NCBI GenBank assembly: GCA_964630525.1
Contig: CAZVUY010000002.1
Span: forward strand, 99,693-163,692
DNA from: an uncultured Candidatus Saccharibacteria bacterium
Lineage (GTDB): Bacteria > Patescibacteriota > Minisyncoccia > Phycocordibacterales > WO2-35-19
Reading direction: 5' to 3'
Length of the DNA: 64,000 nt
Shown: positions 1,486-27,316 of the stretch, piece by piece
How positions within the stretch are numbered: the stretch's first letter is position 1
Layout: every line of letters begins with the position of its first letter
Program-made: the position numbers and the translations under genes
Notes under the pieces: generated by a model
Databases searched by the model: none
What the model was told of the DNA's origin: nothing
The model's input: only the letters and a program-made list of their open reading frames with translations

Positions 1486-1622
1486 ATTGATCGTGATTTA
1501 CTAATAAACACAAAGCCCGCCGCTAGGAAGGTCCGAAGACCTCTATGGAGTTTCCCCCATAACACGATCAATGCCCTAACGACGGGTTCTCTATCATTGA
1601 TCGTGATTTACTTGGACCATGC
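1486..1622. repeat. pair of perfect 17-nt direct repeats ATTGATCGTGATTTACT (1486-1502 and 1606-1622) flanking a GC-richer ~100-nt spacer
   Basis: Read directly from the sequence; lies in the 5' part of the 1456 ORF, which is therefore probably not coding here. Confidence 0.8.
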
Positions 1623-1701
1623 CGTTTCCGGTTTAGGTCCTGCCCTCGCGGGCTATTCGGTTGTTATTGCAATAATACCAAGTTTGGAGGAATATAGGAA
1701 T

Positions 1702-3124: not shown

Positions 3125-4855
3125 ATGGAAACTTCTACAAAAACAAGCAACAATGATAAAATAATTGAAATGAATAACAAAGCAGTAATTTATTGCAGAG
3201 TATCATCCAAAGAGCAGGAAGAAACCGGCTATTCATTGCCGGCACAGGAAAAACTACTTACTGAATATGCTCAAAAAAGAGGTTTGGATATAGTAAAGAT
3301 ATTTTCTATATCTGAATCAGCAAGTGGTGCAAAGCAGCGGCAAGTATTCTATGAAATGATGAGCTTTTTGGGGAATAAAAACATCCCTCATCTGTTATGC
3401 GAAAAAGTAGATCGCATTACTCGTAATATGAAAGATGCGGTAGTAATAAATGATTGGATTGAAGATGATGCAGAAAGACAAATCCACTTCATAAAACAGA
3501 ATCTTGTAATTCATAAGAATGCAAAGTCAGACGAGAAGTTTCGCTGGGATATTGAAATTGTCCTAGCCAAAAAATATATCGCAAACCTATCGGAGGAAGT
3601 GAAAAAAGGACAAGCAGAAAAAATTAGGCAGGGATGGCTACCAACAAGACCACCCATCGGGTATAGGACTGTCGGAGAAAAAGGCCATAAAACTCATGTG
3701 ATTGATGAAAATACAGCTCCACTCATAAGGAAAGCTTTTGAGTTGTATGCCACTGGCAATTATTCTATGAAGCGACTAGCTGATGAGTTGTATAAAGACG
3801 GCCTCCGAACGAAATTAGGAAAGAAGCCGGCCAAAAGCAGGATTGAAGATATTCTCAAAGAGCCATTTTATTATGGTGCGATCAGGTGGAATGATGTGCT
3901 TCACAACAATGGCGCCCATAAGCCGATTATAACCAAAGAGTTGTTTGATAAGGTTACAGAGGTCCGGACAAGGGGTGATACTCCAAAATATCAGAGGCAT
4001 CAGTTCACCTTTCGTAAACTTCTAAGATGCAAGGAGTGTGATGGCACGATCACGGCCGAGATTCAAAAAGGAATTATTTACTATCACTGCACTCATTACA
4101 AAGGTTGCACTCAAAATAAATACACCCCAGAGAAGCAAATAGAGGAAAAATTATTAGGTGTATTTAAGTTTTTTGAGAATATAACTCCGGGAGAGGCAGA
4201 GCGTATCAAGGATAAAATAAAGGCCAATCACGCTGTTGAGATTGAATACAAGGAAAACACCATAAAGTCCCTCAACGAGCGGTATAGCCACTTACAGAGG
4301 CGCGTAGACCAGTTATATGACGATAGGTTGGACCATATAATCACCAACGAGCATTGGGAGAGAAAGCAGAAGGAGATAAACGACGAGCAGGCAGTAATCA
4401 GAGATCAGTTGGCCCAACTCAAAAGTGAGGAAACGAAATATTTTGAAATCTGGCTCAATATCTTGGACCTTGCTAGGAGGGCAAGAGAGATATACCAAAA
4501 GAGAAGCCCGGAACAGCGTAGGACCCTTATAAAGTATATTTTTCAAACCCTTATGCTAAAAGATGGAGAAACCGAATCCACCCTAAAGCCGACTATTGAA
4601 AAAATAGCCAAAAGAGTGCAACAGAAGCTAGATCAAGAAAAGATTTTCGAACAGACACAAAAAACCGCTAAAAGCACTGCTTCTAGCGACTCTTTGCGTT
4701 CTTCAAAACCAAATAATCCGTTAGAACTTTCGGAGGGTCAAAATAATTTTCGAACCTCAAAAAAGCTCTCTGTTAAGGCACGACACAGTGATTTGCACAC
4801 TGCTTCACGCCCTCTGCTCCGGGAGCAGGGATCGAACCTGCGACCAATCGCTTAA
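3125..4855 (+). CDS. large serine recombinase (resolvase/invertase catalytic domain, recombinase domain, zinc ribbon, coiled coil)
   Basis: N-terminal VIYCRVSSKEQ with catalytic Ser; recombinase domain; zinc ribbon CKECDG...HC; long coiled-coil tail; the ORF ends inside tRNA-Asn. Confidence 0.85.
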   Translation: METSTKTSNNDKIIEMNNKAVIYCRVSSKEQEETGYSLPAQEKLLTEYAQKRGLDIVKIFSISESASGAKQRQVFYEMMSFLGNKNIPHLLCEKVDRITRNMKDAVVINDWIEDDAERQIHFIKQNLVIHKNAKSDEKFRWDIEIVLAKKYIANLSEEVKKGQAEKIRQGWLPTRPPIGYRTVGEKGHKTHVIDENTAPLIRKAFELYATGNYSMKRLADELYKDGLRTKLGKKPAKSRIEDILKEPFYYGAIRWNDVLHNNGAHKPIITKELFDKVTEVRTRGDTPKYQRHQFTFRKLLRCKECDGTITAEIQKGIIYYHCTHYKGCTQNKYTPEKQIEEKLLGVFKFFENITPGEAERIKDKIKANHAVEIEYKENTIKSLNERYSHLQRRVDQLYDDRLDHIITNEHWERKQKEINDEQAVIRDQLAQLKSEETKYFEIWLNILDLARRAREIYQKRSPEQRRTLIKYIFQTLMLKDGETESTLKPTIEKIAKRVQQKLDQEKIFEQTQKTAKSTASSDSLRSSKPNNPLELSEGQNNFRTSKKLSVKARHSDLHTASRPLLREQGSNLRPIA

Positions 4856-4888
4856 CAGGCGACTGCTCTACCGCTGAGCTATCCCGGA
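4817..4888 (-). tRNA. tRNA-Asn (anticodon GTT)
   Basis: Manually folded cloverleaf: perfect 7-bp acceptor TCCGGGA/TCCCGGA, D-arm GCTC-AGCGGTA-GAGC, anticodon loop CTGTTAA, T-loop TTCGATC. Confidence 0.85.
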
Positions 4889-6961: not shown

Positions 6962-7369
6962 ATGAAAATTAACACCAAGGCCACCAATATCAGCCTAACC
7001 CCAGCCATCTCAGACTATGTTGAAAAGAAAATCAGTTTACTAGAAAAGTTTTTCAAGAATCCGGGTGAAGTTTTGATCAACGTGGAAGTCGGTAAGACTA
7101 CCAAGCATCACAAGTCAGGCAATGTCTTTTTGGCAGAAATACATATTGTCGCTGATGGAGAAGAATATTATGCGACCACCGAAACCGAAGATTTGTATGC
7201 GGCGATCGATCTAGTCAAAGATGATATCGCAAGAGAAATGACCTCGAGAAGGAAGAAGGCGATCCGCATGTTGCGTCGCGGCGGTGCTCATCTCAAAAAT
7301 ATACTGCGCGGTATTGTCGATATCAGAGACCGCAGCTGGAAAAGGATCAAAAATTTTAGAAAGAAGTAG
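6962..7369 (+). CDS. hpf: ribosome hibernation promoting factor / RaiA family
   Basis: HPF/YfiA-like sequence INVEVGKTTKHHKSGNVFLAEIHI... Confidence 0.85.
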   Translation: MKINTKATNISLTPAISDYVEKKISLLEKFFKNPGEVLINVEVGKTTKHHKSGNVFLAEIHIVADGEEYYATTETEDLYAAIDLVKDDIAREMTSRRKKAIRMLRRGGAHLKNILRGIVDIRDRSWKRIKNFRKK

Positions 7370-8222
7370 ATCGGTTTTGTCCACGCAAGAAATCTTCGTA
7401 AGGCATTTCTTTCTTGCCTTCGGGGATCACTCTTTCAATTTTTAGTTTTGAATCTTCTATACAAGCTTTTTTTATAAGGACTCTTTTATTTCCTTGAAAA
7501 AAGTAGGTGCCAGGCCAACCTTCCAGGGCCCTGATTTTGAGTAGGTTTTGGTGAGGATCGTCCTGGAGGTCTATTTGCCCGTCTTCTTTTTTGATTTTTT
7601 TACAATAGGTAGCCAACTCTTCGTTCTGAGGAATAGGGTCGATAACTCCTTCCAACCATTCGGGTAAGATATGAGCGAAAAGGCGAGCACCTTCGATTGC
7701 CAGGGTCCTTTCTAGCTCCTTCCTAGATTCTAGTTGCTGGCTTCTAGCTACTGGTTTTTTAGCTACTACTGGTCCTTCATCCATTCCTTCGGTTATAACC
7801 ATGATGCTCACTCCAATTCCTTTTTCATCATTTAAGATTTGGCTTTGGATTGGAGAGGCACCGCGGTATTTGGGCAAGAGAGAGGGGTGGATGTTTAGCG
7901 TTTTCTTTGCCGGGATTTCAAAAATTTCTTTAGGAATTATTTTGCCATAAGAGGCGACCAGGAAAAGTTGAGAGCTGAGAGCTTGGAGCTTAGAGACAAG
8001 ATCCGGATTATTTTTTAAAGAAGATGGATCCAATACTTCTATACCATTTTCCTTTGCCCAAACTTTGACTATATTGGGGGTGAGGATCAGCTTGCGACCT
8101 TGGGGTTTGTCGGGAGCGGTTACTATCAAAGTGGGCACTAGGTGGTGCAACTTTAGTTCGTCGAGTACTTGGACGGAAAATTCGGAAGAGCCGAAGAATA
8201 CAAATCTTGAATTTTGAATCAT
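7356..8222 (-). CDS. fmt: methionyl-tRNA formyltransferase
   Basis: N-terminal FFGSSEF and HPSLLPKYRGASPIQ motifs; def-fmt synteny. Confidence 0.9.
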   Translation of the reverse strand: MIQNSRFVFFGSSEFSVQVLDELKLHHLVPTLIVTAPDKPQGRKLILTPNIVKVWAKENGIEVLDPSSLKNNPDLVSKLQALSSQLFLVASYGKIIPKEIFEIPAKKTLNIHPSLLPKYRGASPIQSQILNDEKGIGVSIMVITEGMDEGPVVAKKPVARSQQLESRKELERTLAIEGARLFAHILPEWLEGVIDPIPQNEELATYCKKIKKEDGQIDLQDDPHQNLLKIRALEGWPGTYFFQGNKRVLIKKACIEDSKLKIERVIPEGKKEMPYEDFLRGQNRSTSF

Positions 8223-8264: not shown

Positions 8265-8828
8265 TCAAACTTCTTTTTGGGGCGGGATTTCTTTTAGATC
8301 GCTCGCTTTGTCTATAAAGAGGATACCATTTAGATGATCGATTTCGTGTTGAAAAATCTGAGAGAGAATACCAGAACCACCAAAGGTGAAAGGTTGGCCT
8401 TGCTCATCATATGCTTTGACGAGGGTTTTGATTGGTCGTTCGACCTTGCCATAAAGCCATCTGACTGATAGGCAACCCTCCTCGACTGGCTCCTTTCTTT
8501 TGGAAGTTTTGATGATGGTGGGGTTGATGAAAACTAGATCTTTGTATTCTGGCTTATCCTTGGCAAACTCGTCCAGGTTTTCCCTTTTTGATTTGCTCCT
8601 ACTTTTTTCTTCGGCTATCAAATCAAAGACTCTTTTTGAGACCACAAAAATCCGCAGACTTTCACCGATCTGGGGGGCAGCGATCGCCACTCCGTCTTCT
8701 TCTTTATCCAGAGCTTTGATCATCCTTCTGATGATCGTGTCTATTTTTTGGCTCCTGATTTCTTCTAAGGGTACTTCTAAGGCCACTTTTCTAAGCACCC
8801 GATCGCCTTTTTGGACAATTTCACTCAT
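8265..8828 (-). CDS. def: peptide deformylase, with a charged insertion
   Basis: Motifs GxGxAAxQ-like IAAPQIG, EGCLS, QHEIDHLNG. Confidence 0.9.
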   Translation of the reverse strand: MSEIVQKGDRVLRKVALEVPLEEIRSQKIDTIIRRMIKALDKEEDGVAIAAPQIGESLRIFVVSKRVFDLIAEEKSRSKSKRENLDEFAKDKPEYKDLVFINPTIIKTSKRKEPVEEGCLSVRWLYGKVERPIKTLVKAYDEQGQPFTFGGSGILSQIFQHEIDHLNGILFIDKASDLKEIPPQKEV

Positions 8829-8867
8829 ATTTTCAATTTAACATGGTTTTACCCTATAACAAAGAGC

Positions 8868-10814
8868 TTACAACAAATTGTCTGGATCGATCTTTATTTC
8901 AAAATGAAGAGGGAGGGTTTTTAAGACAGAAATGATTTTTTTGTCTGGCCAATTTTCCCGAGGAATTTTGATGACTGCATTTACCGCCGCCTGTTCACCC
9001 TTTTTTTCTTGGGAAGAGCTGAAGAGGGTGGTTTTGTAATCATGATTTTGACCGTACACTTCCTGATCATCGTCTGGAGACTTTTTGAGTTTCGCCAATA
9101 TTTTTTTTAGGTTGTCGATCTCTTTGGTAACAAAATTTTTCGAACCACGAGTAGTGATTTTGATAAAAATACCGTAAGGCGGGTATTCCAATATTTTGCG
9201 ATCTTCAGTCTCGTTGTTATAAAAACCAAGCAAATCTCCGGTTAGGGCAAGCTTGACCGTCTCTTCTTCCGGGTTGCGAGTTTGAATCAAAAAATTTTCT
9301 TTGGCTATTTCTTTGGTTTGTAGAATCAACCTAAATATTTTTTCGCGGATTTTGTAGTCTGGTACAAAAAACAAGGAGTCAAATGAGGCAATGATGGCCG
9401 TATTGATCTTTTTTTGTAAGTAAGAAAAAGCAAGCTCGGTACCGAGCAAGACTCCGCCGCGAGTGTTATAAAAGCTATCCATGATTTTTATAGCTTTGGT
9501 ACTACTATCGACCACATCTTTGTTCATTTCAAAAAGGTTGAGGTTGGGCAATTTTTCCTTTAGTTCTTGAGCGACTCGGTCGACACCAACACCATAAGCG
9601 GCCAATTTCCAGCTACCACATTTTTGGCAAACTTCAGAAGCGTCTCTGGTTTCGCCACATTGCGGACATTTGAAAAGCCCCCCATCTTTTATTTTGTAAA
9701 GAATCATGGCCGAAGCGCAGTTGGAGCACTTGACTTGTTCGCCACAATCTCGACAGATGGTCATCGGAGCCAGACCTTTGCGGGCGGCAAAAATAAAAGT
9801 GTGAGCTCCTTTTTTTGCAGTTTCTTCGATCAAGGTTAAGAGATCGTCAGAAATAATCCGAAAATCTTTTTCTTTCTTGGTCAGGGTTTTTAGGTCTATC
9901 AGGTAAGTTTTCAAATCGGAGGTTAGGCGCCATTTGAGGTTATCAAGTTCGCGGAGCTTGTTTTCTCGATAGCGGTATAGAGTCTCGATTGTAAGGAAAG
10001 AGTCGCCGATAATACAGCGAGCACCTATTTTTTGAGCATAACTTTCAACGAAAAAACGCAGATCAATGAAAGGTCTGGAGAGGGTTTTCCAACCGTTTTC
10101 ATTTTCTTTGTCGATAATGATTGTGCCGATGTCATCTCTACCGACACAAAGCCACTTAGCAGTACCAATGATGAGTACAGGATGATCAGTGTTGGAGGTT
10201 TTTTGCCATTCGGCCTTTAGTTCTTTTTTGGTCATTTCTTTTTGGAAGCTAGCCACATAGGTTTCGATACCCCGACTCAATCTTTCTTTGGCCTGCCTCA
10301 CATCTTCATTTTGGGGTAGACAAATAAAAACAGATTTCTTTTTTGCAAATTCTTCCCGAATCAAAAGTCTATAATTGCTAAAACGCTCTTCTTCACTTGC
10401 CTGGAGGATTAGGGTTTCTGTTTTTTGTTCGGTCATTTTCCCAGACTTTTGATTATAATTTTTGGCACTGATCAATCTAGGGTTTTCTAAAATGAAAGAG
10501 GGGATGAGATGATAAAGCACCCCACCGGTGGTGGCCACGAAGTAACCAGCAGTTTCGTTTACCGCTTTTAGGAAATTTTTGCCAAGGAAAGGTTTGGAGA
10601 TGGAAGCCCCAATTTTTTTTAATTGAAAGCTGGCTGAACGAATCTCTGTTTTTAATTCTGCGGCGTCTTTACTGCTGACTACTAGAGCCGGTACATTTTT
10701 ACCCCGGAGATTGATCCTAACCAAAGAGCCGGCTTCAAAATGTTGGGTTGAAAAGTAAGATAAGGATTCGGCATTTAGACTTCTAGAAAATGGCAAACAT
10801 TCGACGATAAACAT
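8868..10814 (-). CDS. priA: PriA-like primosomal protein N' with degenerate ATPase motifs
   Basis: PriA-type 3' DNA-binding N-terminus, 4xCxxC zinc module, helicase-like core that aligns to PriA; classical priA-def-fmt synteny; Walker A replaced by QASEEER and DEEH by DKEN. Confidence 0.7.
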   Translation of the reverse strand: MFIVECLPFSRSLNAESLSYFSTQHFEAGSLVRINLRGKNVPALVVSSKDAAELKTEIRSASFQLKKIGASISKPFLGKNFLKAVNETAGYFVATTGGVLYHLIPSFILENPRLISAKNYNQKSGKMTEQKTETLILQASEEERFSNYRLLIREEFAKKKSVFICLPQNEDVRQAKERLSRGIETYVASFQKEMTKKELKAEWQKTSNTDHPVLIIGTAKWLCVGRDDIGTIIIDKENENGWKTLSRPFIDLRFFVESYAQKIGARCIIGDSFLTIETLYRYRENKLRELDNLKWRLTSDLKTYLIDLKTLTKKEKDFRIISDDLLTLIEETAKKGAHTFIFAARKGLAPMTICRDCGEQVKCSNCASAMILYKIKDGGLFKCPQCGETRDASEVCQKCGSWKLAAYGVGVDRVAQELKEKLPNLNLFEMNKDVVDSSTKAIKIMDSFYNTRGGVLLGTELAFSYLQKKINTAIIASFDSLFFVPDYKIREKIFRLILQTKEIAKENFLIQTRNPEEETVKLALTGDLLGFYNNETEDRKILEYPPYGIFIKITTRGSKNFVTKEIDNLKKILAKLKKSPDDDQEVYGQNHDYKTTLFSSSQEKKGEQAAVNAVIKIPRENWPDKKIISVLKTLPLHFEIKIDPDNLL

Positions 10815-10867
10815 ATAAAGATTGTGTCAGATATTTGCCTAGCTCTCAATATTGCTGATTTGCCGAC

Positions 10868-11908
10868 TTGCTTGTAGTATTTAAGCAAATGGCATTTTTC
10901 TCTAAAAAACTAGGTATTGATTTGGGGACGGCGAATATTTTGGTTTTTGTGCCTGGCAAGGGGGTGGTATTAAACGAACCTTCGGTGGTCGCGATTGGTG
11001 TTGAAAATAATCGGATTTTGGCGGTCGGAGCGGATGCTAAGGTGATGATCGGCCGTACCCCAGAGGCCATCATTGCCTATCGTCCAATGAAAGATGGTGT
11101 GATTGCTGATTATAGAGTGACAGAAGCGATGCTACGTTATTATATCCGAAAGGCGATGGGTAGCTGGAATTTTATCAAACCGGAGGTGTTAATATCGGTA
11201 CCGGCTGGTGTGACTTCAACCGAAAGAAGAGCGGTGATCGAGGCGGCTATCAAAGCGGGTGCCAAGAGCGCGTATGTTATCAAGGAGCCAATCTTAGCAG
11301 CGATCGGCGCTGGTATTCCGATCTATGAAGCTAAGGGTCATATGATCACTGATATTGGCGGTGGTACTACTGACGTAGCAGTGATTTCGCTCGGTGGCAT
11401 TGTTGCTTCTACTTCGGTCAAGTGCGCTGGCAACCGGATCGATGAAAGTATTGCTGATTATGTAAAAAAGAATTTTAACCTAGCGATTGGCGACAAAATG
11501 GCCGAAGATATCAAAATCAATATTGGTTCAGCACTGCCTCTTGAAGAAGAGTTGCGGATGGATATAAAAGGGCGTGATCTGGTGACTGGTTTACCGCGTT
11601 CGATCGAAGTGCGCACCAATGAAATTGTGAAAGCTATCTCCAAAGAGTTGAGAGAAATGATCAAGGCTATTAAAGATGTTTTGCAAGAGACACCACCCGA
11701 ACTTGCTGCTGATATTATCGACAATGGCATCATTATGACCGGGGGCACTTCTTCTTTGCGCAATTTTCCTGAATTGGTATTGGCTAAGGTTGGTGTCAAA
11801 GCCACTTTAGCCAAAGATCCGCTTTTTTGTGTCGCTCGGGGCACCGGAGTCGCGCTTGATTACCTCGGTACTTATAAGAAGACCATTATTTCAAAAAGAC
11901 AGTCATGA
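10868..11908 (+). CDS. mreB: rod-shape determining protein MreB
   Basis: GIDLGTANILVFV...NEPSVVAI actin-fold motifs; likely start at internal MAFFSKK. Confidence 0.9.
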   Translation: MLVVFKQMAFFSKKLGIDLGTANILVFVPGKGVVLNEPSVVAIGVENNRILAVGADAKVMIGRTPEAIIAYRPMKDGVIADYRVTEAMLRYYIRKAMGSWNFIKPEVLISVPAGVTSTERRAVIEAAIKAGAKSAYVIKEPILAAIGAGIPIYEAKGHMITDIGGGTTDVAVISLGGIVASTSVKCAGNRIDESIADYVKKNFNLAIGDKMAEDIKINIGSALPLEEELRMDIKGRDLVTGLPRSIEVRTNEIVKAISKELREMIKAIKDVLQETPPELAADIIDNGIIMTGGTSSLRNFPELVLAKVGVKATLAKDPLFCVARGTGVALDYLGTYKKTIISKRQS

Positions 11909-15646: not shown

Positions 15647-16717
15647 ATGTTTAGAGAAAAGATGGAGCAATGGTGGCGCATGATGCGCAATGACATTGGT
15701 ATTGATCTTGGTACCGCGAACGTACTGGTCTATGTGCGTGGCAAAGGGGTTATACTCAACGAACCCTCGGTTGTCGCTGTAAATCAAAAGACCGGTCAGA
15801 TCGTGGCAGTTGGTCGGGAAGCCAAAAATATGCTAGGTCGCACTCCGCCGCATATCATAGCTGTCCGACCAATTGTTGGAGGAGTAATTTCTGATTTTGA
15901 GGTGACGGAAGAGATGATTAGCTATCTTTTAAAGAAAGCTCAGGCAGTTTCCAAAAAGTTTTTTGGTCCGAGAGTGGTGGTGGGTGTGCCATCACATATC
16001 ACCAATGTGGAAACAAGGGCGGTGAGAGATGCGACCCGCAATGCGGGAGCCAGTGAAGTCCATATTGTCGAAGAGCCGATGGCTGCAGCTATTGGAATGC
16101 ACTTACCAATCAACGAACCAGTTGGTAACATGGTGATCGATATTGGTGGCGGTACAGCTGATATAGCAGTTATTTCTTTGGGTGGTGTGGTGAGTTCTAA
16201 AAATGTCAGGATCGCTGGCGATAAATTAAATAACGATATAACTTCTTACATTAGGAGTGAATTTAAGATAGTGATTGGCGAGAAAACAGCTGAGAGTATC
16301 AAGACTACAATCTGTTGCCTTTTACCCGAAGAAAATCCGCTCGAAACTAAGGCGCGAGGCAGAGATCTAATCACTGGTTTGCCACGGGAAGTGGTAGTCA
16401 CCGATGCTGATATTAGGAATGCTGTTTCCAATTCGATCGAAAGACTCGTCGAAGCCACCAAAGAAGTTTTGGAATTAACCCCACCGGAAATATTGTCAGA
16501 TATCATGCATCGAGGTATTCACTTGGCGGGTGGCGGCGCTTTGATTAGGGGGTTTGCCGAGGTGCTCCAAGAAGAGGTAAAGATTCCGGTCTATATAGCC
16601 GATGACCCACTTTCTTGTGTGGTGAGGGGTACTGGTATGATCCTTGAGAAGTTAGATAAATTTAAAGACATATTGGTAGCTGACGAAGATGATATATCAA
16701 CTAAAGCATACGAATAG
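15647..16717 (+). CDS. mreB: second MreB paralog
   Basis: IGIDLGTANVLVYVRGKGVILNEPSVVAV; followed by mreC. Confidence 0.9.
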   Translation: MFREKMEQWWRMMRNDIGIDLGTANVLVYVRGKGVILNEPSVVAVNQKTGQIVAVGREAKNMLGRTPPHIIAVRPIVGGVISDFEVTEEMISYLLKKAQAVSKKFFGPRVVVGVPSHITNVETRAVRDATRNAGASEVHIVEEPMAAAIGMHLPINEPVGNMVIDIGGGTADIAVISLGGVVSSKNVRIAGDKLNNDITSYIRSEFKIVIGEKTAESIKTTICCLLPEENPLETKARGRDLITGLPREVVVTDADIRNAVSNSIERLVEATKEVLELTPPEILSDIMHRGIHLAGGGALIRGFAEVLQEEVKIPVYIADDPLSCVVRGTGMILEKLDKFKDILVADEDDISTKAYE

Positions 16718-17492
16718 TAAAAGTGGTTTGCGAGGAAATCGATTTTTTAGGACGATTGTTATTCTGCTAGTTGTTCTGGCTCTGTCTTTTGGTGCCAATT
16801 TTTTTATTGGACGTTATTTTTCCAGCACTTTCTCTTATCTTTTTGAGCTTGGCGACTATTTTTATCAAGATTTTGCTCTCATTCCTAAAAAGGTTGGTGA
16901 CCAAACAAGTCTAGCCGAAGAAAATGCCAAACTGGCAACAGAGGTGGAGGTTTTGCGGTCAGCCGTCTTTGATTACGAACTTTTAAAATCTGAAAATCAA
17001 AAACTTTATGAAGAAATCAAACTTAAGCCGGCAAGTGGGCTAATGGCAGCCAAAATTATTGCTCGTCCGCCCCAATTGCCGCTCGATTCTATTTTGCTTG
17101 ACCGAAGTTTCGAAGATGGGGTGGTTGTCGGTGATTGGGTTTTGGCGAGTGACAGGATCGTGATCGGTAAAGTATTGAAGACGGCGGAAGGACGCTCGGT
17201 GGTGGCTTTAAATTCTTTTGCTGATACTGTCTCTTATGGACATCTCGAGCGTACCAATGAATGGATAGAGGTGGTTGGTGACGGTGGCGGTAGTTTGACT
17301 GCTAAAGTACCAATAGATTTTGATGTTAAAACCGGTGACCGTATTTTGATTGAAGGCCAGCATCCTTACCTGTTGGCGGTTGTTAGTCTGATAAAAGAAA
17401 ACACCGCTTCTGGTTTCAAAGAGATATTGCTTTCATTGCCTATCAATTTATCCAAGATCAGGATAGTTTTTTTAGAAAAATCAGGTCAATGA
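16689..17492 (+). CDS. mreC: MreC-like rod shape protein
   Basis: N-terminal TM, coiled coil, beta-rich C-terminus; position after mreB. Confidence 0.6.
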   Translation: MIYQLKHTNSKSGLRGNRFFRTIVILLVVLALSFGANFFIGRYFSSTFSYLFELGDYFYQDFALIPKKVGDQTSLAEENAKLATEVEVLRSAVFDYELLKSENQKLYEEIKLKPASGLMAAKIIARPPQLPLDSILLDRSFEDGVVVGDWVLASDRIVIGKVLKTAEGRSVVALNSFADTVSYGHLERTNEWIEVVGDGGGSLTAKVPIDFDVKTGDRILIEGQHPYLLAVVSLIKENTASGFKEILLSLPINLSKIRIVFLEKSGQ

Positions 17493-17758
17493 GGAAAATA
17501 TATCGCATCGGCATCTTATTGTTCAGCATTTTGCTACCGATTATTTTCGGATGGTGGCTATTTTTACCACTCATTCTCATATCTATTTATCTGATCAAAT
17601 TGCCTTACGAAATCATCCTGGCTGCTGCGATCTTGGATTCCTTCTATTATTTTGGAGACAGTTTTTTGTCTAACCACAGGCTCACCTTGGCCGCCTTTTT
17701 TGCTATACTGATAGCACTTTTCCTGAGCGATAAGCTCAATTGGCAAAGAAGAATATAA
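17489..17758 (+). CDS. small polytopic membrane protein, possibly a minimal MreD
   Basis: 89 aa, hydrophobic; lies between mreC and the PBP2 gene. Confidence 0.3.
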   Translation: MRKIYRIGILLFSILLPIIFGWWLFLPLILISIYLIKLPYEIILAAAILDSFYYFGDSFLSNHRLTLAAFFAILIALFLSDKLNWQRRI

Positions 17759-19488
17759 AAATGCTAGGCATCATCAGGCGGTTTTTTGGTAGATTCAATA
17801 GAAGAAGTTATACCGATATTGATCCGGATTTGATTTTTCTTGATTCGAAAAATTTGCCAGAGTTTGATACTTACCAGCTGGAGGGTCGTCTCGAAAAACC
17901 TATTTCTAAAAAAGCATTTGGGGTTTTCCAGGTTTTGTGTTTGCTCGTATTGTTAGTCTTTATTTCCAAGATTGGTCATTTGCAGATCGTCGAGGGTCAA
18001 GTTTATCGAGAGCGAAGCGAAAATAATAAACTCAAACAAATTTTGATTGTCGCCCCTCGAGGGATGATCGTGAGTCGCGATGGCGAATCCCTCGCTTGGA
18101 ATCAACAACCACTTGGTGCAAACGGAGAAACGCAGGATTTTTCCCATCGCAAATATACCGATCGTGAAGGTTTCGGCAATCTACTCGGGTTTATCAAATA
18201 TCCCGCTAAAGACAAATCAGGTTTTTATTACGAAGAAGAATTTTTGCCCAAAGATGGGTTGGAGTTGTATTTAAATGAGATTGTCGCTGGTCGCAATGGT
18301 TTGGAATTTGTGGAAACTTCGGTAAACGGTGAAGTAGTTTCGGAAAGTGTGGTAAAGCCGCCAAAAATAGGCGACAATGCTCGGCTTTCTGTAGACGCAA
18401 GAGTTCAGGAGAAGTTTTATCACACCATCAAAGAGTTGGCCGGAAGAGTGGGTTTCCAAGGGGGTGCTGGTATTATCATGGACGTGCATTCGGGAGAAGT
18501 ACTCTCCATGGTGAGTTATCCAGAATACGACCCGGAAGTGATGACCGAAGGTGAGGATGCCAAACTGATTGACAGTTATTTTAAAAACCCCAATAACCCG
18601 TTTTTAAATCGAGTAATTGCTGGACTCTATACCCCAGGATCAATTATTAAACCTTTTGTCGCTCTAGCGGCGCTAGAAGAGAAGGTGATCAGCCCGCAGA
18701 AAGAAATAGTGAGCACCGGCCGGCTGGTGATCCCAAACCCTTATAATCCGGATAACCCGACTATTTTTCGTGACTGGAAAGCCCATGGAGCAGTCGATAT
18801 GAGGCGAGCGATCGCTGTTTCTTCGGACGTTTATTTTTATCAGATCGGCGGCGGGTTTGAGAATCAGAAAGGTTTGGGTGTTGAAAAGATCAAAAATTAT
18901 TTAGAAAACTTCGGCTTTACCAAGAAAACAGGTTTTGATAACTCAAAAGAAGAGATGGGTATAATACCTAGCCCCGAATGGAAGGCCAAGACTTTTAATG
19001 GTGAGATTTGGCGAGTGGGCGATACTTATAACACTTCGATTGGCCAATACAGCATGCAGATCACACCTATACAAGCGGCAGTCGCCACGGCTTCACTCGC
19101 GAATGGCGGCCACTTGGTGACCCCGTCTATTCTATTTACGGCGACCAGTACTGTAGCTTTTGGTGAGAAAGTGAAAGGTTCTCCAGAAAATTTCCAAATT
19201 GTAAAAGAAGGTATGAGACAGGCGGTACTTGAAGGCACGGCGGCGGGTTTGAATATGGGTGCGGTCGAGATCGCCGGCAAAACTGGGACAGCGGAACTCG
19301 GCGCCAGAAAACAATTTGTAAATTCGTGGGTGATTGGTTTTTTCCCTTATGAAAATCCAAAGTATGCTTTTGCGACCGTGATGGAGCGCGGTCCAGTCAC
19401 CAACCTAACCGGTGCTACTTATGTCATGCGCCAACTTTTTGATTGGATGTCGATCAACACCCCGGAGTATTTTAAGAATTCTCAATAA
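17740..19488 (+). CDS. mrdA: penicillin-binding protein 2-type transpeptidase
   Basis: SIIKPF (SxxK), SSD (SxN) and KTGTA motifs; mre context. Confidence 0.85.
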   Translation: MAKKNIKMLGIIRRFFGRFNRRSYTDIDPDLIFLDSKNLPEFDTYQLEGRLEKPISKKAFGVFQVLCLLVLLVFISKIGHLQIVEGQVYRERSENNKLKQILIVAPRGMIVSRDGESLAWNQQPLGANGETQDFSHRKYTDREGFGNLLGFIKYPAKDKSGFYYEEEFLPKDGLELYLNEIVAGRNGLEFVETSVNGEVVSESVVKPPKIGDNARLSVDARVQEKFYHTIKELAGRVGFQGGAGIIMDVHSGEVLSMVSYPEYDPEVMTEGEDAKLIDSYFKNPNNPFLNRVIAGLYTPGSIIKPFVALAALEEKVISPQKEIVSTGRLVIPNPYNPDNPTIFRDWKAHGAVDMRRAIAVSSDVYFYQIGGGFENQKGLGVEKIKNYLENFGFTKKTGFDNSKEEMGIIPSPEWKAKTFNGEIWRVGDTYNTSIGQYSMQITPIQAAVATASLANGGHLVTPSILFTATSTVAFGEKVKGSPENFQIVKEGMRQAVLEGTAAGLNMGAVEIAGKTGTAELGARKQFVNSWVIGFFPYENPKYAFATVMERGPVTNLTGATYVMRQLFDWMSINTPEYFKNSQ

Positions 19489-22147: not shown

Positions 22148-23740
22148 GTGAGGTTAGATATCGAAAAGTCCCTACAAAGAGGCGAACATTGGAGTGAGGT
22201 GACAGCGAGGGAAGTCAAAGCTGTTTTTGGTGATGCTACTCTTTTTACTACCGCCGCCGGTATTAGCCCATCAGGAGTGGTGCATTTTGGCAATTTTAGA
22301 GACGTGATCACTTCTTATGCCACCCACCTCAAATTGAAAGAACAAGGTTTAAAGACCAAGATGATTTTCTCTTGGGACAACTTCGATCGTTTTCGCAAAG
22401 TACCAGTCAATATTCCGGAGGATTTCAAACAATATATCGGACTTCCTTTGAGCGCCGTACCGTCTCCTGTAGATGGTTTTTCTTCCTATGCCGAATATTT
22501 TCAAAAGCCGTTTGAGGAAGCGATGAAAGAGCTCGGCATAGATCTTGAATATCGTTATCAAACAGAAGAATACAAAAGTGGGCAGTATGATGAGTTTATT
22601 TTTCAGGCATTGAAACGTCGCCAAGACATTGCCAAGATCTTGCTTTCATTTATGACCGAGAAGGGTAAAGTCGAAGCGGGTATCGTCGAATCTGAATACA
22701 TCGAAAATTATTACCCGATCTCTGTTTACTCGAGGTTTACTGGCAAAGATGCGACCAAGGTGCTTTCATACGATGGCGAAAGATCGATCACTTACTATTG
22801 TGCGGAAACCAAAAATACTGAGACTGTTGATTTAGGCAAGGACAGGATCGCCAAATTGGCGTGGAAGGTGGATTGGCCGATGCGCTGGAAAGTAGAAAAT
22901 GTCGTCTTCGAGCCGGGTGGCCATGACCATGCTTCGCCCGGAGGCAGCTTCGATGTTTCGAGTGTTATCGCCAAAGAGATTTTCGGTATTACCGAGCCGG
23001 TGTTTGTCGAATACAAATTTGTCGGTATCCAGGGTGGTGGTACCAAAATGTCTGGTTCTAAAGGCAATGCGATCTCGCCCCAACAACTCTTGGAAATTTA
23101 CGAACCGGCGCTTTTGAAATGGCTATATTTGCGCAAAAATCCGAGCCAACCATTTAGTTTGGCTTTCGATACCGAAATCTATCGCCAGTACGACGAATTT
23201 GATCGAGCTTTGCAAGCAAACTCTGGTGAAGTCGCTTTGAAACTGAGTGGTGCAACCAAGCTTGAAAACCCGATCCCTTTTAAACAAGCGGTCTCGCTCG
23301 GGCAAATCACCCAATGGAATGAAGAGAAAGTTTTGAATTTGCTTGCTGATCTGAAAGCTGACTACGATCCGCTCTCGGTCAAAAATAGATTGCCCAAAGC
23401 CAAAAACTGGCTCAATGAATACAACCAAGAAGAAATGATCGGTCTCTTGAGAGAGGTCAATGTAGCCTATGTGACTACCATGAGCGAAGCGTCAAAACAG
23501 CAGGTGTGGAAGTTGAAGGAAGAGTTGGCCAAAGAATATTCTTCGATTGAGGAGTTGGAACATCTTGTTTACTCGATTCCAAAAGATAATACGAAAACTG
23601 ACAAAGAAAATGCGCCAGCCCAAAAAGAATTTTTCCGTCATGTCTACAACCTTTTGATCGGCAAAGACGCCGGTCCCCGCCTCTCCACCTTCCTCTGGGC
23701 CGTCGATCGAGATCTTGTGCTTAAATTGTTGAATATATAA
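22148..23740 (+). CDS. lysS: class I lysyl-tRNA synthetase
   Basis: HFGN (HIGH-like) and KMSGSKGN (KMSKS) motifs in about 530 aa, the class I LysRS pattern. Confidence 0.85.
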   Translation: MRLDIEKSLQRGEHWSEVTAREVKAVFGDATLFTTAAGISPSGVVHFGNFRDVITSYATHLKLKEQGLKTKMIFSWDNFDRFRKVPVNIPEDFKQYIGLPLSAVPSPVDGFSSYAEYFQKPFEEAMKELGIDLEYRYQTEEYKSGQYDEFIFQALKRRQDIAKILLSFMTEKGKVEAGIVESEYIENYYPISVYSRFTGKDATKVLSYDGERSITYYCAETKNTETVDLGKDRIAKLAWKVDWPMRWKVENVVFEPGGHDHASPGGSFDVSSVIAKEIFGITEPVFVEYKFVGIQGGGTKMSGSKGNAISPQQLLEIYEPALLKWLYLRKNPSQPFSLAFDTEIYRQYDEFDRALQANSGEVALKLSGATKLENPIPFKQAVSLGQITQWNEEKVLNLLADLKADYDPLSVKNRLPKAKNWLNEYNQEEMIGLLREVNVAYVTTMSEASKQQVWKLKEELAKEYSSIEELEHLVYSIPKDNTKTDKENAPAQKEFFRHVYNLLIGKDAGPRLSTFLWAVDRDLVLKLLNI

Positions 23741-25594: not shown

Positions 25595-27316
25595 ATGAAC
25601 GGTAGGATACGACTTATATCGGGTAGTATCGTTTTCTTGGCGCTACTTCTGATTGCTAGGCTTTATTTTTTGCAAATCGTACACGGTGAATCCTTCGTCG
25701 CTGAAGCCGAGCGTCAATATGTAAACAAAAACACCGTTTCTTATGATCGCGGTGAAATTTATTTTGAGACCAAAAACAGTGAAAAGGTGCCAGCCGCTAT
25801 CTCTCGTTCTGGCTTCACGATCTCAATAAACCCAAGTATCATCAAAGATCCGGAGGCTATCTATCAATCACTCAGAAAAGTGCTGCCACTTGATCGGGAA
25901 GAGTTTCTGGCTAAGGCTGGCAAAGCAAACGACAAGAATGAAGAAATAGCCAATCGTTTGAATAAAGAGGCTGCTGATAAAATAAAAAATCTCAATCTTT
26001 ATGGTGTGAATATCGCTACCGACAAATGGCGGTTTTACCCGGGTAATAGTTTGGCGGCACAAAGCATTGGTTTTGTTGCTTACAAAGACGACGCTTTGGC
26101 CGGACGTTATGGTTTGGAGAGGTATTATGAAGATGTCTTGAGGCGCGATCCAAGAAGTGCTTATGATAATTTTTTTGCTGAATTTTTCTCAAGTGTTAAA
26201 CAGACTTTTGGTACTGGTTCGAATCAAGAGGGTGATATTGTGACTACGATTGAGCCATCGACCCAACTTTTTCTAGAGGATGAATTGAAAAATATAAAAC
26301 AAACATGGGGGAGCGATGGTGCTGGAGGTGTTGTTATAAACCCCAAAAATGGTGAGATAGCAGCACTCGCTTGGTACCCTTCTTACAATCCCAACAACTT
26401 CAAAGAAAGTGAAGTCTCCCTGTTTAATAACCCGATCGTAGAAGGGGTATATGAAATGGGTTCGATCATCAAACCGATCAGTATGGCGGCCGGTATCGAC
26501 AGTGGCACCGTCTCAGCTACTAGCACGTATTATGATGCGGGTTTTTTGGTTTTGAACAACAAAAGAATTTCTAATTATGACAACCGGGGCCGAGGTCTAG
26601 TAAATATGCAAGAGGTACTCAACCAATCTTTGAATACCGGGGTGGCTCATGTGGCGATGAAAATGGGTAATAAAAAATTCTCTGAGTACATGAAGAGTTT
26701 CGGGGTGGGTATGGAGACCGGGGTAGATTTGCCAAACGAAGCGAGAGGGCTCATTGACAACCTTGATAGTGAACGGGAGATTGAAATGGCAACAGCGGCC
26801 TATGGTCAAGGTATTGCGATGACTCCCATTGCCACCGTACGTGCTCTTTCGGCTCTAGCGAACGGTGGTACGCTAGTGACGCCGCATTTGGTTAAAAAAA
26901 TAGAATACGAGACCGGACTTTTCAAAAGAATATCTTTCCCCGAAGGTAAGCAGGTGATCAAGAAGGAAACTTCGGATGAGATATCGAGAATGTTGGTGAA
27001 AGTGGTAGATACTGCGCTCCGCAATGGTACGGCCAAAATACCTGGCTACTCGGTCGCTGCGAAAACTGGTACGGCTCAGATGACTGATGAGGGTAGGCGA
27101 GGTTATGCCGAGGGCAAGTATCTCCACTCCTTTTTTGGTTACTTCCCAGCTTACGATCCGAAATTTCTAGTTTTTCTTTTCCACATTTATCCTAAAAATG
27201 TACGTTATGCTTCAGAAACATTGACCGATCCATTTATCAATATTACAAAATTTCTAATAAATTATTATCAGATCCCACCCGACAGACCAGAGGATGTGGC
27301 AATTAAAAATATTTAA
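25595..27316 (+). CDS. ftsI: penicillin-binding protein 3-type transpeptidase
   Basis: SIIKPI, SLNTG and KTGTA motifs; dcw context. Confidence 0.85.
   Translation: MNGRIRLISGSIVFLALLLIARLYFLQIVHGESFVAEAERQYVNKNTVSYDRGEIYFETKNSEKVPAAISRSGFTISINPSIIKDPEAIYQSLRKVLPLDREEFLAKAGKANDKNEEIANRLNKEAADKIKNLNLYGVNIATDKWRFYPGNSLAAQSIGFVAYKDDALAGRYGLERYYEDVLRRDPRSAYDNFFAEFFSSVKQTFGTGSNQEGDIVTTIEPSTQLFLEDELKNIKQTWGSDGAGGVVINPKNGEIAALAWYPSYNPNNFKESEVSLFNNPIVEGVYEMGSIIKPISMAAGIDSGTVSATSTYYDAGFLVLNNKRISNYDNRGRGLVNMQEVLNQSLNTGVAHVAMKMGNKKFSEYMKSFGVGMETGVDLPNEARGLIDNLDSEREIEMATAAYGQGIAMTPIATVRALSALANGGTLVTPHLVKKIEYETGLFKRISFPEGKQVIKKETSDEISRMLVKVVDTALRNGTAKIPGYSVAAKTGTAQMTDEGRRGYAEGKYLHSFFGYFPAYDPKFLVFLFHIYPKNVRYASETLTDPFINITKFLINYYQIPPDRPEDVAIKNI

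What the first reader, a model, noticed from the sequence alone, without database searches (positions are those of the whole stretch)
8868..10814. PriA homologue with both ATPase motifs destroyed but architecture and synteny intact
The protein keeps the PriA N-terminal DNA-binding domain, the 4xCxxC zinc module and priA-def-fmt synteny. Its helicase core aligns residue by residue with E. coli PriA motifs I-II. Despite that alignment, GVTGSGKTEVY is replaced by QASEEERFSNY and DEEHD by DKENE, and no QxxGRxGR arginine finger is visible. This suggests a catalytically dead, structural PriA. That would be unusual for the replication-restart helicase.
Basis: partly seen in the sequence, partly recalled or inferred. 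Interest (0 to 1): 0.5.

Follow-up and report, generated by a model that had tools for sequence, protein, structure and literature searches.

The report
Motor-dead PriA in Parcubacteria (CPR)
This gene encodes the replication-restart protein PriA of a tiny uncultured (CPR/Parcubacteria) bacterium; it keeps the PriA fold and DNA-binding parts but has lost every ATP-using motif, and so do all of its hundreds of relatives examined, which makes this a second, apparently undescribed and more extreme case of the PriA 'pseudohelicase' so far shown experimentally only in Deinococcus.

Summary
ORF 8868-10814 (-), 648 aa, is a PriA orthologue: hhalign gives 99.8% probability against E. coli PriA, and the AF2 model (pTM 0.87) superposes on PriA structures at TM 0.72-0.74. 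It sits in a priA-def-fmt operon.

All ATPase motifs are gone:
- Motif I: GVTGSGKT becomes QASEEERF.
- Motif II: DEEH becomes DKEN.
- Motif III: SAT becomes DSF.
- Motif VI: GRAGR is deleted.

No P-loop occurs in any frame.

This is a lineage trait, not a decaying gene. 462 unique homologues share the losses. They include 77 GTDB species representatives and 150 clusters at 50% identity, and all that carry a lineage label are Parcubacteria/Paceibacteria/Minisyncoccia. Several replacement residues are at least 95% conserved (Q138, R144, Y148, E237, D271). The dead lobes are as conserved as the zinc module.

The most likely function is an ATP-independent fork-binding platform for replicative-helicase reloading. 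This is inferred from ATPase-dead E. coli PriA and from D. radiodurans PriA.

It is not unprecedented. Deinococcus-Thermus PriA is a proven pseudohelicase, and I show that an actinobacterial PriA (PRK14873 type) is also motif-dead. The CPR family degenerated independently and appears undescribed. I rate it a new variant of a known kind, of moderate interest.

The parts
8868..10814 (-). priA orthologue, 648 aa plus stop codon (stop at 8868-8870); motor-dead PriA
10497..10814 (-). 3' DNA-binding domain (3'BD), aa 1-106. The 3'-end pocket is largely kept: Ec Y18 = Y20 invariant, Ec K61 = K66 (K/R), Ec D17 = S/T.
   Evidence: Pfam PF17764 24.6 bits; residue mapping; pocket residues from PMC5778457
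10419..10496 (-). Short, poorly conserved, low-pLDDT linker (aa 107-132) where E. coli PriA has its winged-helix domain and linkers; the WH domain is absent.
   Evidence: about 85-residue gap in hhalign; no PF21213 hit, whereas E. coli PriA hits it at 105.6 bits; pLDDT 53-59; conservation 0.31
9900..10418 (-). Helicase lobe 1 (HD1, RecA-like fold retained, aa 133-305), carrying the dead motifs I, II and III
   Evidence: alternating beta/alpha elements with pLDDT mostly >90; TM 0.72-0.74 to PriA; conservation 0.62
10371..10403 (-). Replacement of Walker A / motif I: QASEEERFSNY (aa 138-148) on the GVTGSGKTEVY columns. R144 sits on the K230 column. Family signature is Q-x4-[ED]-R-x3-Y.
   Evidence: Q138 448/462, [ED]143 450/462, R144 457/462, Y148 445/462
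10101..10112 (-). Replacement of Walker B / motif II: DKEN (aa 235-238) for DEEH. The family pattern is [DE][KR]E[NS]; E237 is at least 95% conserved.
10056..10094 (-). Aromatic/basic loop GWKTLSRPFIDLR (aa 241-253) on the columns of the E. coli aromatic-rich loop that wedges into the fork junction. R247, P248, D251 and R253 are at least 90% conserved (P248, D251 and R253 at least 95%).
   Evidence: ARL function from PMC5175346 and PMC10175261
9993..10007 (-). Replacement of motif III: GDSFL (aa 270-274) for GSATP; D271 is invariant in the GTDB set.
9606..9755 (-). Cysteine-rich region (aa 354-403) with four CxxC pairs (two predicted Zn sites). D356 (= Ec D438) and W402 (on the Ec T482 column) are invariant.
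   Evidence: PriB-docking residues from PMC10175261
9144..9605 (-). Helicase lobe 2, C-terminal part (aa 404-557); together with aa 306-353 (nt 9756-9899) it forms the second RecA-like lobe.
9297..9320 (-). Remnant of motif VI: QTKEIAKE (aa 499-506). The GRAGR arginine-finger segment is deleted (5-residue gap in every family member), and the segment is not conserved (mean 0.39).
8871..9143 (-). C-terminal domain (aa 558-648), a beta-alpha-beta-beta-alpha-beta unit, with a disordered acidic insert at about aa 583-590
   Evidence: secondary structure and pLDDT; full-length Foldseek alignments; PF18074 precomputed for some family members
8265..8828 (-). def (peptide deformylase), 40 nt downstream on the same strand
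   Evidence: Pfam PF01327 E 3.8e-43; synteny kept in related loci
7356..8222 (-). fmt (methionyl-tRNA formyltransferase), third gene of the priA-def-fmt unit
   Evidence: Pfam PF00551 and PF02911; synteny; canonical Listeria priA is also followed by fmt

Best explanation
This is the single-copy-position orthologue of priA in a Parcubacteria/Paceibacteria (CPR) bacterium, and it encodes a PriA pseudohelicase. The protein keeps these parts of PriA:
- the 3'-end-binding domain;
- both RecA-like lobes;
- the fork-junction loop;
- the two-zinc cysteine-rich region;
- the C-terminal domain.

The nucleotide site has been rebuilt so that it can no longer bind or hydrolyse ATP:
- The glycine-rich P-loop is replaced by an acidic Q-x4-[ED]-R segment, predicted to be a two-residue turn running straight into helix alpha1.
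- DEEH is replaced by [DE][KR]E[NS].
- SAT is replaced by D-x-[FL].
- The motif VI arginine fingers are deleted.
- The winged-helix domain is gone.

Inferred mechanism. The protein recognises abandoned forks and D-loops by shape. The 3'BD holds the nascent leading-strand 3' end, the HD1 loop sits at the junction, and the lobes, CRR and CTD lie around lagging-strand ssDNA. [quoted passage not shown] It may do this directly or through lineage-specific adaptors. It cannot clear a duplex lagging arm, so it would act only on forks with a single-stranded lagging template, or depend on another helicase.

Shown here: orthology, fold retention, motif loss, lineage-wide purifying selection.
Inferred: loss of ATPase activity, DNA binding, the role in helicase reloading.
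For: Orthology and fold:
- hhalign 99.84% over aa 19-553.
- AF2 mean pLDDT 85.3 and pTM 0.87.
- Foldseek top nine hits are all PriA, E down to 1.8e-37 and TM 0.69-0.74. The lowest rmsd (5.7) is to 6DCR, the E. coli PriA winged-helix deletion. The next fold, Mfd, reaches TM 0.38 at most.

Motif loss:
- Searches show the replacements.
- No P-loop or DExH in any frame.
- Pfam finds only the 3'BD. E. coli PriA under the same settings hits 3'BD, WH, DEAD, ResIII, Helicase_C, PriA_C and the CRR ribbon.
- UvrB in the same window has intact motifs.

Lineage-wide and selected:
- The same losses occur in 114 database homologues, 77 GTDB species representatives at 36-59% identity and 150 representatives of 50%-identity clusters.
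- Q138, R144, Y148, E237 and D271 are at least 95% conserved in 462 unique sequences.
- HD1 and HD2 conservation (0.62) is about equal to the CRR (0.65) and higher than the 3'BD (0.57) and CTD (0.43).
- priA-def-fmt is kept in 66 of 80 loci, with a largely conserved divergent mreB-holB-frr block.

Function without a motor is established elsewhere:
- E. coli PriA K230R abolishes ATPase and helicase activity, yet supports primosome assembly and the PriA-PriB pathway (PMC5778457).
- DnaB loading is reconstituted with PriA K230A (PMC10175261).
- D. radiodurans PriA has no ATPase or helicase activity, but binds ssDNA and forks with near-normal affinity and binds DnaB (PMC4504706).

DNA-contact elements are kept:
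- Y20 and K66 of the 3'-end pocket.
- The conserved [WY]K...RP[FY].D.R loop on the ARL columns.
- D356 of the CRR.
Against: - There is no biochemical measurement. ATPase loss is inferred from sequence and a predicted structure.
- D17 of the 3'-end pocket is S/T here.
- The winged-helix domain, which contacts parental duplex in E. coli, is missing, so fork recognition may differ.
- The partner proteins are unknown. No DnaB, loader, SSB or PriB-like gene lies in the 64-kb window.
- I could not search a whole genome of this lineage, so a second, canonical PriA elsewhere in the genome is not formally excluded.
- The strong conservation of new residues in the old ATP site (Q138, R144, E237, D271) could mean a new ligand or partner site and not simple inactivation.
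Confidence: 0.72

Rival explanations
1. Neofunctionalised PriA derivative. The fold is kept, but the protein no longer works in replication restart. The rebuilt, highly conserved ex-ATP site (Q138, R144, E237, D271) and the invariant W402 on the CRR would bind a new ligand or partner, giving a different role in DNA metabolism or another process.
For: - New residues in the former nucleotide site are at least 95% conserved, and helix alpha1/beta2 next to it (REEFA..S) is the most conserved stretch of HD1.
- W402 is invariant on the surface that docks PriB in E. coli.
- The WH domain is lost.
- TIGR00595 scores below its equivalog cut-off (217.8 against 230.35).
Against: - The chromosomal position is the ancestral priA position: priA-def-fmt here, and coaBC-priA-fmt in Listeria with a canonical PriA.
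- The DNA-contact elements (3'BD pocket Tyr/Lys, junction loop, CRR) are kept.
- The two other motif-dead PriA lineages are treated as restart proteins, and D. radiodurans PriA still binds forks and DnaB.
- No alternative function is suggested by any neighbouring gene.
Confidence: 0.13
2. Still an active NTPase or translocase that uses a non-canonical nucleotide site, for example R144 in place of the Walker A lysine and E237 as catalytic base.
For: A basic residue (R144) is kept on the K230 column in 457 of 462 sequences, and an acidic residue (E237) on the second Glu column of DEEH. A few members keep DEEH or EEEH.
Against: - No glycine-rich loop: mean 0.23 Gly and net charge -1.36 on the eight P-loop columns.
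- The loop is predicted to collapse to a two-residue turn.
- K230R alone abolishes ATPase in E. coli PriA (PMC4504706 and PMC5778457).
- The motif VI arginine fingers are physically deleted in every member.
- Motif III is lost.
Confidence: 0.04
3. A degenerate paralogue that coexists with a canonical, active PriA encoded elsewhere in the same genome.
For: Only 64 kb of this genome, and about 14 kb around each related locus, could be inspected.
Against: - The gene occupies the conserved priA-def-fmt position in 66 of 80 species-level loci.
- tblastn of E. coli PriA finds no second PriA in the window; the only other hits are weak motif-level matches, the best two of which lie within the UvrB gene.
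- From general knowledge, not tested here: CPR genomes of 0.6-1 Mb rarely keep duplicate replication genes.
- None of the 240 listed homologues from two searches carries a precomputed DEAD, ResIII or Helicase_C domain.
Confidence: 0.06
4. A decaying pseudogene or an assembly or annotation artefact.
For: None beyond the motif loss itself.
Against: - The ORF is an uninterrupted 648 codons.
- 462 unique full-length homologues exist.
- Conservation of the dead lobes equals that of the Zn module.
- The predicted fold is confident.
- An identical protein is found on independent assemblies (P0001, 100% identity, 5 member sequences).
Confidence: 0.01

Closest known systems
Deinococcus radiodurans / Deinococcus-Thermus PriA pseudohelicase (Lopper, Boone & Morrow 2015, PMC4504706)
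   Same: - A PriA orthologue whose helicase motifs I and II are not conserved.
- Arg on the column of the Walker A lysine.
- The loss is shared by the whole lineage.
- Proposed to keep fork binding and replisome reloading without ATP.
   Different: - The Deinococcus case is proven biochemically (no ATPase, no unwinding, binds ssDNA, fork and DnaB). This one is sequence and structure inference only.
- As that paper describes it, Deinococcus-Thermus PriAs are 'poor matches' to motifs I and II with K to R in GKT. Here the P-loop glycines are all gone, motif III is replaced and the motif VI arginine fingers are deleted.
- The phylum is different and distant.
- I could not obtain a Deinococcus sequence, so relatedness of the two losses was not tested.
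Actinobacterial PriA, NCBIfam PRK14873 family ('primosome assembly protein PriA'), e.g. Tsukamurella tyrosinosolvens WP_068739079.1
   Same: Tested here:
- about 660 aa;
- 3'BD-like N-terminus;
- no winged-helix domain;
- no Walker A, no DExH, no QxxGRxxR;
- four CxxC pairs kept.
   Different: - It is a different family. The CPR profile scores Tsukamurella PriA at 30 bits, against 146-214 bits for canonical PriAs of four phyla. PRK14873 models score the query at 55 bits or less, against 218 for TIGR00595. So the two degenerated independently.
- The replacement residues differ (LWDDGDE against IIDKENE).
- From memory, not tested: UniProt flags mycobacterial PriA as probably lacking helicase activity.
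Canonical PriA (E. coli / K. pneumoniae; PDB 4NL4, 6DGD, 6DCR, 8FAK; TIGR00595)
   Same: - Same overall fold and domain order: 3'BD - HD1 - HD2 with inserted CRR - CTD.
- 3'-end pocket Tyr/Lys.
- Two-zinc CRR with D438 equivalent.
- priA next to fmt, as in Listeria.
   Different: - No ATPase motifs.
- No WH domain; the closest structure by rmsd is the engineered WH deletion 6DCR.
- Below the TIGR00595 equivalog cut-off.
- PriB-docking residues T482/H483 are W/K here.
E. coli priA300 (K230R) and K230A ATPase-dead PriA variants
   Same: Functional analogue. A PriA that cannot hydrolyse ATP but still assembles a primosome and supports DnaB loading in the PriA-PriB pathway.
   Different: These are laboratory point mutants of an otherwise intact motor. 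They depend on PriB and DnaT, which are not known in this lineage. They fail in the PriA-PriC pathway, where unwinding is needed.

Membership tests
PriA (primosomal protein N') homologous family, in the broad sense | Significant full-length sequence homology to PriA | tested here: met
   hhalign probability 99.84%, E 2.2e-30, 517 aligned columns; PDB PriA E about 9e-26; TIGR00595 E 2.4e-64
PriA (primosomal protein N') homologous family, in the broad sense | PriA fold and domain order (3'BD, two RecA-like lobes, CRR inserted in lobe 2, CTD) | tested here: met
   AF2 pTM 0.87; Foldseek TM 0.72-0.74 to 8FAK, 6DCR and 4NL4, with the next fold at 0.38 or less
PriA (primosomal protein N') homologous family, in the broad sense | Cysteine-rich region with four CxxC pairs (two Zn sites) | tested here: met
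   CxxC at aa 354, 363, 383 and 396; all eight Cys at least 95% conserved. Zn binding itself was not tested.
PriA (primosomal protein N') homologous family, in the broad sense | N-terminal 3' DNA-binding domain | tested here: met
   PF17764 24.6 bits against a 22.7 cut-off; Y20 and K66 on the Y18 and K61 columns
PriA (primosomal protein N') homologous family, in the broad sense | Winged-helix domain (PF21213) | tested here: not met
   No hit, whereas E. coli PriA scores 105.6 bits; about 85-residue gap in hhalign. It is also absent from Tsukamurella PriA, so it is not universal in the family.
'Replication restart helicase PriA' equivalog (TIGR00595), i.e. an active SF2 DNA helicase | Score at or above the curated equivalog cut-off | tested here: not met
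   217.8 bits against a 230.35 cut-off
'Replication restart helicase PriA' equivalog (TIGR00595), i.e. an active SF2 DNA helicase | Walker A P-loop GxxGxGK[ST] | tested here: not met
   QASEEERF on those columns; no P-loop in the protein or in any frame
'Replication restart helicase PriA' equivalog (TIGR00595), i.e. an active SF2 DNA helicase | Walker B DExH | tested here: not met
   DKEN
'Replication restart helicase PriA' equivalog (TIGR00595), i.e. an active SF2 DNA helicase | Motif III SAT and motif VI QxxGRxGR arginine fingers | tested here: not met
   DSF; 5-residue deletion of GRAGR
'Replication restart helicase PriA' equivalog (TIGR00595), i.e. an active SF2 DNA helicase | DNA-dependent ATPase and 3'-5' unwinding activity | not testable with these tools
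   Needs purified protein
PriA pseudohelicase (functional class defined by D. radiodurans PriA) | Clear descent from a PriA helicase | tested here: met
PriA pseudohelicase (functional class defined by D. radiodurans PriA) | Catalytic motif residues not conserved, as a lineage-wide trait | tested here: met
PriA pseudohelicase (functional class defined by D. radiodurans PriA) | No ATP hydrolysis and no duplex unwinding | not testable with these tools
   Biochemical assay required
PriA pseudohelicase (functional class defined by D. radiodurans PriA) | Retained ssDNA and fork binding, and interaction with DnaB | not testable with these tools
   Only indirect support: conservation of the 3'BD pocket, junction loop and CRR
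Actinobacterial PriA (NCBIfam PRK14873) | Best match to the PRK14873 models | tested here: not met
   55 bits or less for the query, against 914 bits for Tsukamurella PriA; the CPR profile scores Tsukamurella at only 30 bits

The most novel reading that the evidence does not exclude
The old ATP site was not just lost but rebuilt into a new, strictly conserved polar site, made of Q138, [ED]143-R144, Y148, E237 and D271 together with the REEFA helix. This site would lock the two RecA-like lobes in one fixed state or dock a lineage-specific partner. Together with the invariant W402 on the CRR surface that binds PriB in E. coli, it would let a WH-less, ATP-independent PriA load DnaB directly, without PriB, DnaT or DnaC. 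That would be the standard replication-restart route of an entire major CPR class, a minimal primosome.
Probability: 0.2. Interest if true: 0.6.

Novelty: new variant of a known kind. Interest (0 to 1): 0.38.

Why it matters
[quoted passage not shown] This finding adds a whole, very large uncultured lineage. It comprises at least 150 clusters at 50% identity, and tblastn confirmed relatives in 274 stretches of GTDB species-representative genomes. In this lineage the motor was erased far more thoroughly, while the protein stayed under strong selection.

I also show here that an actinobacterial PriA is motif-dead and unrelated in its degeneration. Together these results argue that PriA's essential, ancestral job is structure-specific fork recognition and helicase recruitment. 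On this view the motor is an accessory that has been dropped at least three times.

For CPR biology, it gives a concrete hypothesis about how minimal-genome bacteria restart replication. It also offers a naturally minimal PriA (no WH, no ATPase) as a simple system for studying fork recognition and DnaB loading.

For annotation, it flags that 'superfamily II helicase' and GO 'DNA duplex unwinding' labels on these proteins are probably wrong.

Tried and rejected
1. Intact motifs elsewhere, or a frameshifted second ORF. A regex over the protein, all six frames of 8601-11100 and 198 family members found nothing at the motif positions. Only 2 of 198 had a chance P-loop-like string, at unrelated positions.

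2. A second PriA in the window. tblastn of E. coli PriA found only this gene plus weak motif-level matches, the best two of which lie within the UvrB gene.

3. A salt bridge across the dead ATP site, revealed by charge-swap covariation between the ex-P-loop and position 236. This idea came from a few sequences. It is not supported on 462 sequences (best odds ratio 3.0, p = 0.18).

4. A partner gene next to priA. The extra 1.4-2 kb between mreB and priA in distant orthologous loci encodes an HTH-MurA-like protein, judged by eye, not a replication factor. No primosome partners lie in the window.

5. Finding the boundary between motor-dead and canonical PriA within CPR.
   - The exhaustive profile search (top 150, all above 600 bits) stayed inside the family.
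   - So did a walk from the least-degenerate member P0255.
   - So did a cluster-name look-up of the ten most divergent representatives.
   - The state of PriA in other Patescibacteria classes remains undetermined.

6. Common origin with the actinobacterial motor-dead PriA. Rejected by profile scores.

7. Literature. No paper linking PriA to CPR, Patescibacteria, Parcubacteria or Saccharibacteria in a relevant way, and none on actinobacterial PriA helicase motifs.

8. Things that could not be done:
   - The AFDB Foldseek library was unavailable.
   - The PNAS 2018 paper on PriA with the winged-helix deletion was not held.
Full report
**1. What is there**

The finding's coordinates match an uninterrupted ORF on the minus strand, 8868-10814, encoding 648 aa. 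Downstream on the same strand lie peptide deformylase (8265-8828) and methionyl-tRNA formyltransferase (7356-8222). Upstream and divergent are mreB, holB (DNA polymerase III delta') and frr (frr named from the ORF translation, which aligns to orthologous loci).

The window is a housekeeping chromosome segment of about 42% GC. It carries ribosomal proteins, SecY, cell-wall genes, a class I LysRS and UvrB. The closest database proteins are labelled Zambryskibacteria, Paceibacterota or Patescibacteria, so the organism is a CPR bacterium of the Parcubacteria group.

**2. Is it PriA?**

Yes.
- Pfam detects the PriA 3'BD above its gathering score.
- NCBIfam TIGR00595 gives E 2.4e-64.
- phmmer against PDB finds only PriA structures at E about 1e-25.
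- A 72-sequence family profile aligns to E. coli PriA with 99.84% probability over 517 columns.
- An AlphaFold2 model built on that alignment is confident (mean pLDDT 85.3, pTM 0.87).
- Its nine best PDB matches are all PriA, at TM 0.69-0.74. The next fold, Mfd, reaches 0.38 at most.

Both RecA-like lobes are predicted as regular beta/alpha units with pLDDT mostly above 90.

Numbering note. My reference for alignment A1 trimmed the start Met instead of the stop codon. Residue numbers printed are therefore one lower than the true numbers used here, which come.

**3. Are the motifs really gone?**

In the alignments:

| Motif | E. coli PriA | This protein | Residues |
|---|---|---|---|
| I (Walker A) | GVTGSGKTEVY | QASEEERFSNY | aa 138-148 |
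| II (Walker B) | DEEH | DKEN | aa 235-238 |
| III | GSATP | GDSFL | aa 270-274 |
| VI | QVAGRAGR | QT-----KEIA (arginine-finger segment deleted) | aa 499-506 |

Further checks:
- The model places a two-residue turn between strand beta1 (ending at Q138) and helix alpha1 (starting at E141), where a P-loop should be.
- No [AG]xxxxGK[ST] or DExH string occurs anywhere in the protein or in any frame of the region.
- Under identical Pfam settings, E. coli PriA hits 3'BD, WH, DEAD, ResIII, Helicase_C, PriA_C and the CRR ribbon. The query hits only the 3'BD.
- Canonical PriAs of Escherichia, Listeria, Fusobacterium and Acaryochloris all carry identical GVTGSGKT and DEEH, plus QV[AS]GRAGR.
- UvrB in this same window has GVTGSGKT, DESH and QTIGRAAR.

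So the loss is specific to this gene.

**4.

The winged-helix domain (E. coli residues about 109-181) is absent. There is a gap of about 85 residues in the profile alignment and no PF21213 hit. In its place is a short, variable, low-confidence linker. The structure closest by rmsd is the engineered E. coli PriA winged-helix deletion, 6DCR.

**5. A lineage trait under selection**

The same four losses occur in every homologue examined:
- 114 database homologues at 42-100% identity.
- 77 GTDB species representatives at 36-59% identity, labelled Zambryski-, Taylor-, Wolfe- and Campbellbacteria, Paceibacterota or Parcubacteria. 274 matching stretches were confirmed in total.
- All 150 best representatives of 50%-identity clusters from an exhaustive profile search. 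Every one scores above 600 bits, so the family is larger than that list.

A few members keep a relic DEEH or EEEH, yet still lack the P-loop and motif VI. A walk outward from one of them stayed inside the family, and no member had a DEAD, ResIII or Helicase_C domain.

Across 462 unique sequences the replacement residues are themselves fixed:
- Q138 in 448 of 462.
- [ED]143 in 450 of 462.
- R144 in 457 of 462, on the column of the Walker A lysine.
- Y148 in 445 of 462.
- E237 and D271 at 95% or more.

The remnant of motif VI is not conserved, with a mean of 0.39. The dead lobes (0.62) are as conserved as the zinc module (0.65), and more conserved than the 3'BD (0.57) and CTD (0.43). The priA-def-fmt order is kept in 66 of 80 loci, and the divergent mreB-holB-frr block is largely kept. 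This is a functional gene, not a relic.

**6. What is kept**

- The four CxxC pairs, with all eight Cys at least 95% conserved.
- The Asp equivalent to E. coli D438 in the CRR.
- The Tyr and Lys of the 3'-end-binding pocket (Y20, K66). E. coli D17 is Ser/Thr here.
- A conserved [WY]K...RP[FY].D.R loop, on the columns of the aromatic-rich loop that wedges into the fork junction in the E. coli cryo-EM structure.
- On the CRR surface that docks PriB in E. coli, T482/H483 are replaced by an invariant Trp and a Lys/Arg.

**7. Most likely mechanism**

The protein is an ATP-independent fork and D-loop recognition platform that recruits the replicative helicase. This is an inference, and it rests on three established facts:
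- E. coli PriA K230R loses ATPase, helicase and translocase activity. It still behaves nearly like wild type in vivo and supports the PriA-PriB route. The motor is needed only for the PriA-PriC route and a few special cases (PMC5778457).
- DnaB loading is reconstituted in vitro with PriA K230A (PMC10175261).
- D. radiodurans PriA has no ATPase or helicase activity, but binds ssDNA and forks with near-normal affinity and binds DnaB directly (PMC4504706).

Without a motor, the CPR protein could not clear a duplex lagging arm. It would act on forks or D-loops with single-stranded lagging templates, or rely on another helicase. The partners are unknown, and none is encoded in the window.

**8. Comparison with what is known, and novelty**

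A motor-dead PriA is not new as a concept. The Deinococcus-Thermus case was published in 2015, and a 2017 review cites it as the only exception.

I also tested an actinobacterial PriA. It came from a Tsukamurella record mislabelled as a plasmid. It is 663 aa and has no Walker A, DExH or motif VI. It keeps four CxxC pairs and has no WH domain. It belongs to NCBIfam PRK14873.

The CPR family is not a branch of that one:
- Its profile scores canonical PriAs at 146-214 bits, but Tsukamurella PriA at only 30 bits.
- PRK14873 models score the query at 55 bits or less, against 218 for TIGR00595.

So PriA's motor has been lost independently in at least two lineages that I could compare, with Deinococcus-Thermus as a third that I could not test.

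Four literature searches found no description of the CPR case. Sources annotate these proteins as 'primosomal protein N' (replication factor Y) (superfamily II helicase)'.

I therefore rate it a new variant of a known kind. It is an apparently undescribed, very large, independently derived PriA pseudohelicase family with the most complete motif erasure seen, its own conserved signature and no WH domain.

**9. Limits**

- No biochemistry.
- The boundary of the trait within Patescibacteria was not reached.
- A second canonical PriA elsewhere in these genomes could not be excluded, because only loci could be read, not whole genomes.
- One structural idea, charge-swap covariation across the site, was tested and rejected.

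Noticed in passing
L082 1940-3931 (Tsukamurella tyrosinosolvens NZ_LR134460.1, labelled 'plasmid 18'): The actinobacterial PriA (PRK14873 family, 663 aa) has no Walker A, DExH or motif VI and no winged-helix domain, but keeps four CxxC pairs. It is a motor-dead PriA in a third phylum, unrelated in its degeneration to the CPR family. The record is evidently a chromosome fragment deposited as a plasmid (coaBC-metK-priA context).
   Followed up: partly
L083 about 2501-2899 (Candidatus Stammera capleta CP144833.1): In this extremely reduced insect symbiont, only a stretch of about 133 residues matches E. coli PriA (aa 231-363). No ORF of 150 aa or more covers it, so it may be a priA remnant or pseudogene.
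   Followed up: no
window 1528-1639 (-): Rfam LOOT RNA (RF03000) match at 53.1 bits (gathering score 46.4). It lies antisense within a 312-aa ORF (1456-2394, +) that has no Pfam hit.
   Followed up: no
window 3125-4888: A large serine recombinase (Resolvase + Recombinase + Zn ribbon, 576 aa, +) whose 3' end overlaps a tRNA gene on the opposite strand (4817-4888). The first 4 kb of the window have lower GC (0.36-0.37 against about 0.43), which suggests an integrated element at a tRNA.
   Followed up: no
window 10868-11908, 15647-16717, 16689-17492, 17740-19488, 25595-27316: Two MreB paralogues, MreC and two PBP2-type transpeptidases within 17 kb: a full rod-shape/elongasome set, duplicated in part.
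   Followed up: no
window 28847-31594 (+): A 915-aa ORF, the largest in the window, with no Pfam family at E <= 1e-5.
   Followed up: no
window 33318-34037 (-), within 32-34 kb: A T5orf172/MUG113-domain protein sits in the only stretch with clearly negative GC skew (-0.12), next to ORFs without Pfam hits. This may be a mobile or phage-derived insertion.
   Followed up: no
window 36174-37244 (-): A single 356-aa ORF combines a LOG/SLOG ('Lysine_decarbox') domain with a pterin-4a-carbinolamine dehydratase domain, an unusual fusion.
   Followed up: no
L072 4433-5941 and L074 4236-5774: In the more distant orthologous loci, a gene of about 500 aa with an N-terminal XRE-type HTH fused to a MurA/EPSP-synthase-like body is inserted between mreB and priA. 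The identification is by eye only.
   Followed up: partly
P0255, P0187, P0244 (family members): A few family members retain DEEH or EEEH at motif II while lacking the P-loop and motif VI. This suggests that motif II decayed after motifs I and VI, and these members may mark early-branching lineages of the family.
   Followed up: partly
window 22148-23740 (+): The lysyl-tRNA synthetase is of the class I type (PF01921).
   Followed up: no
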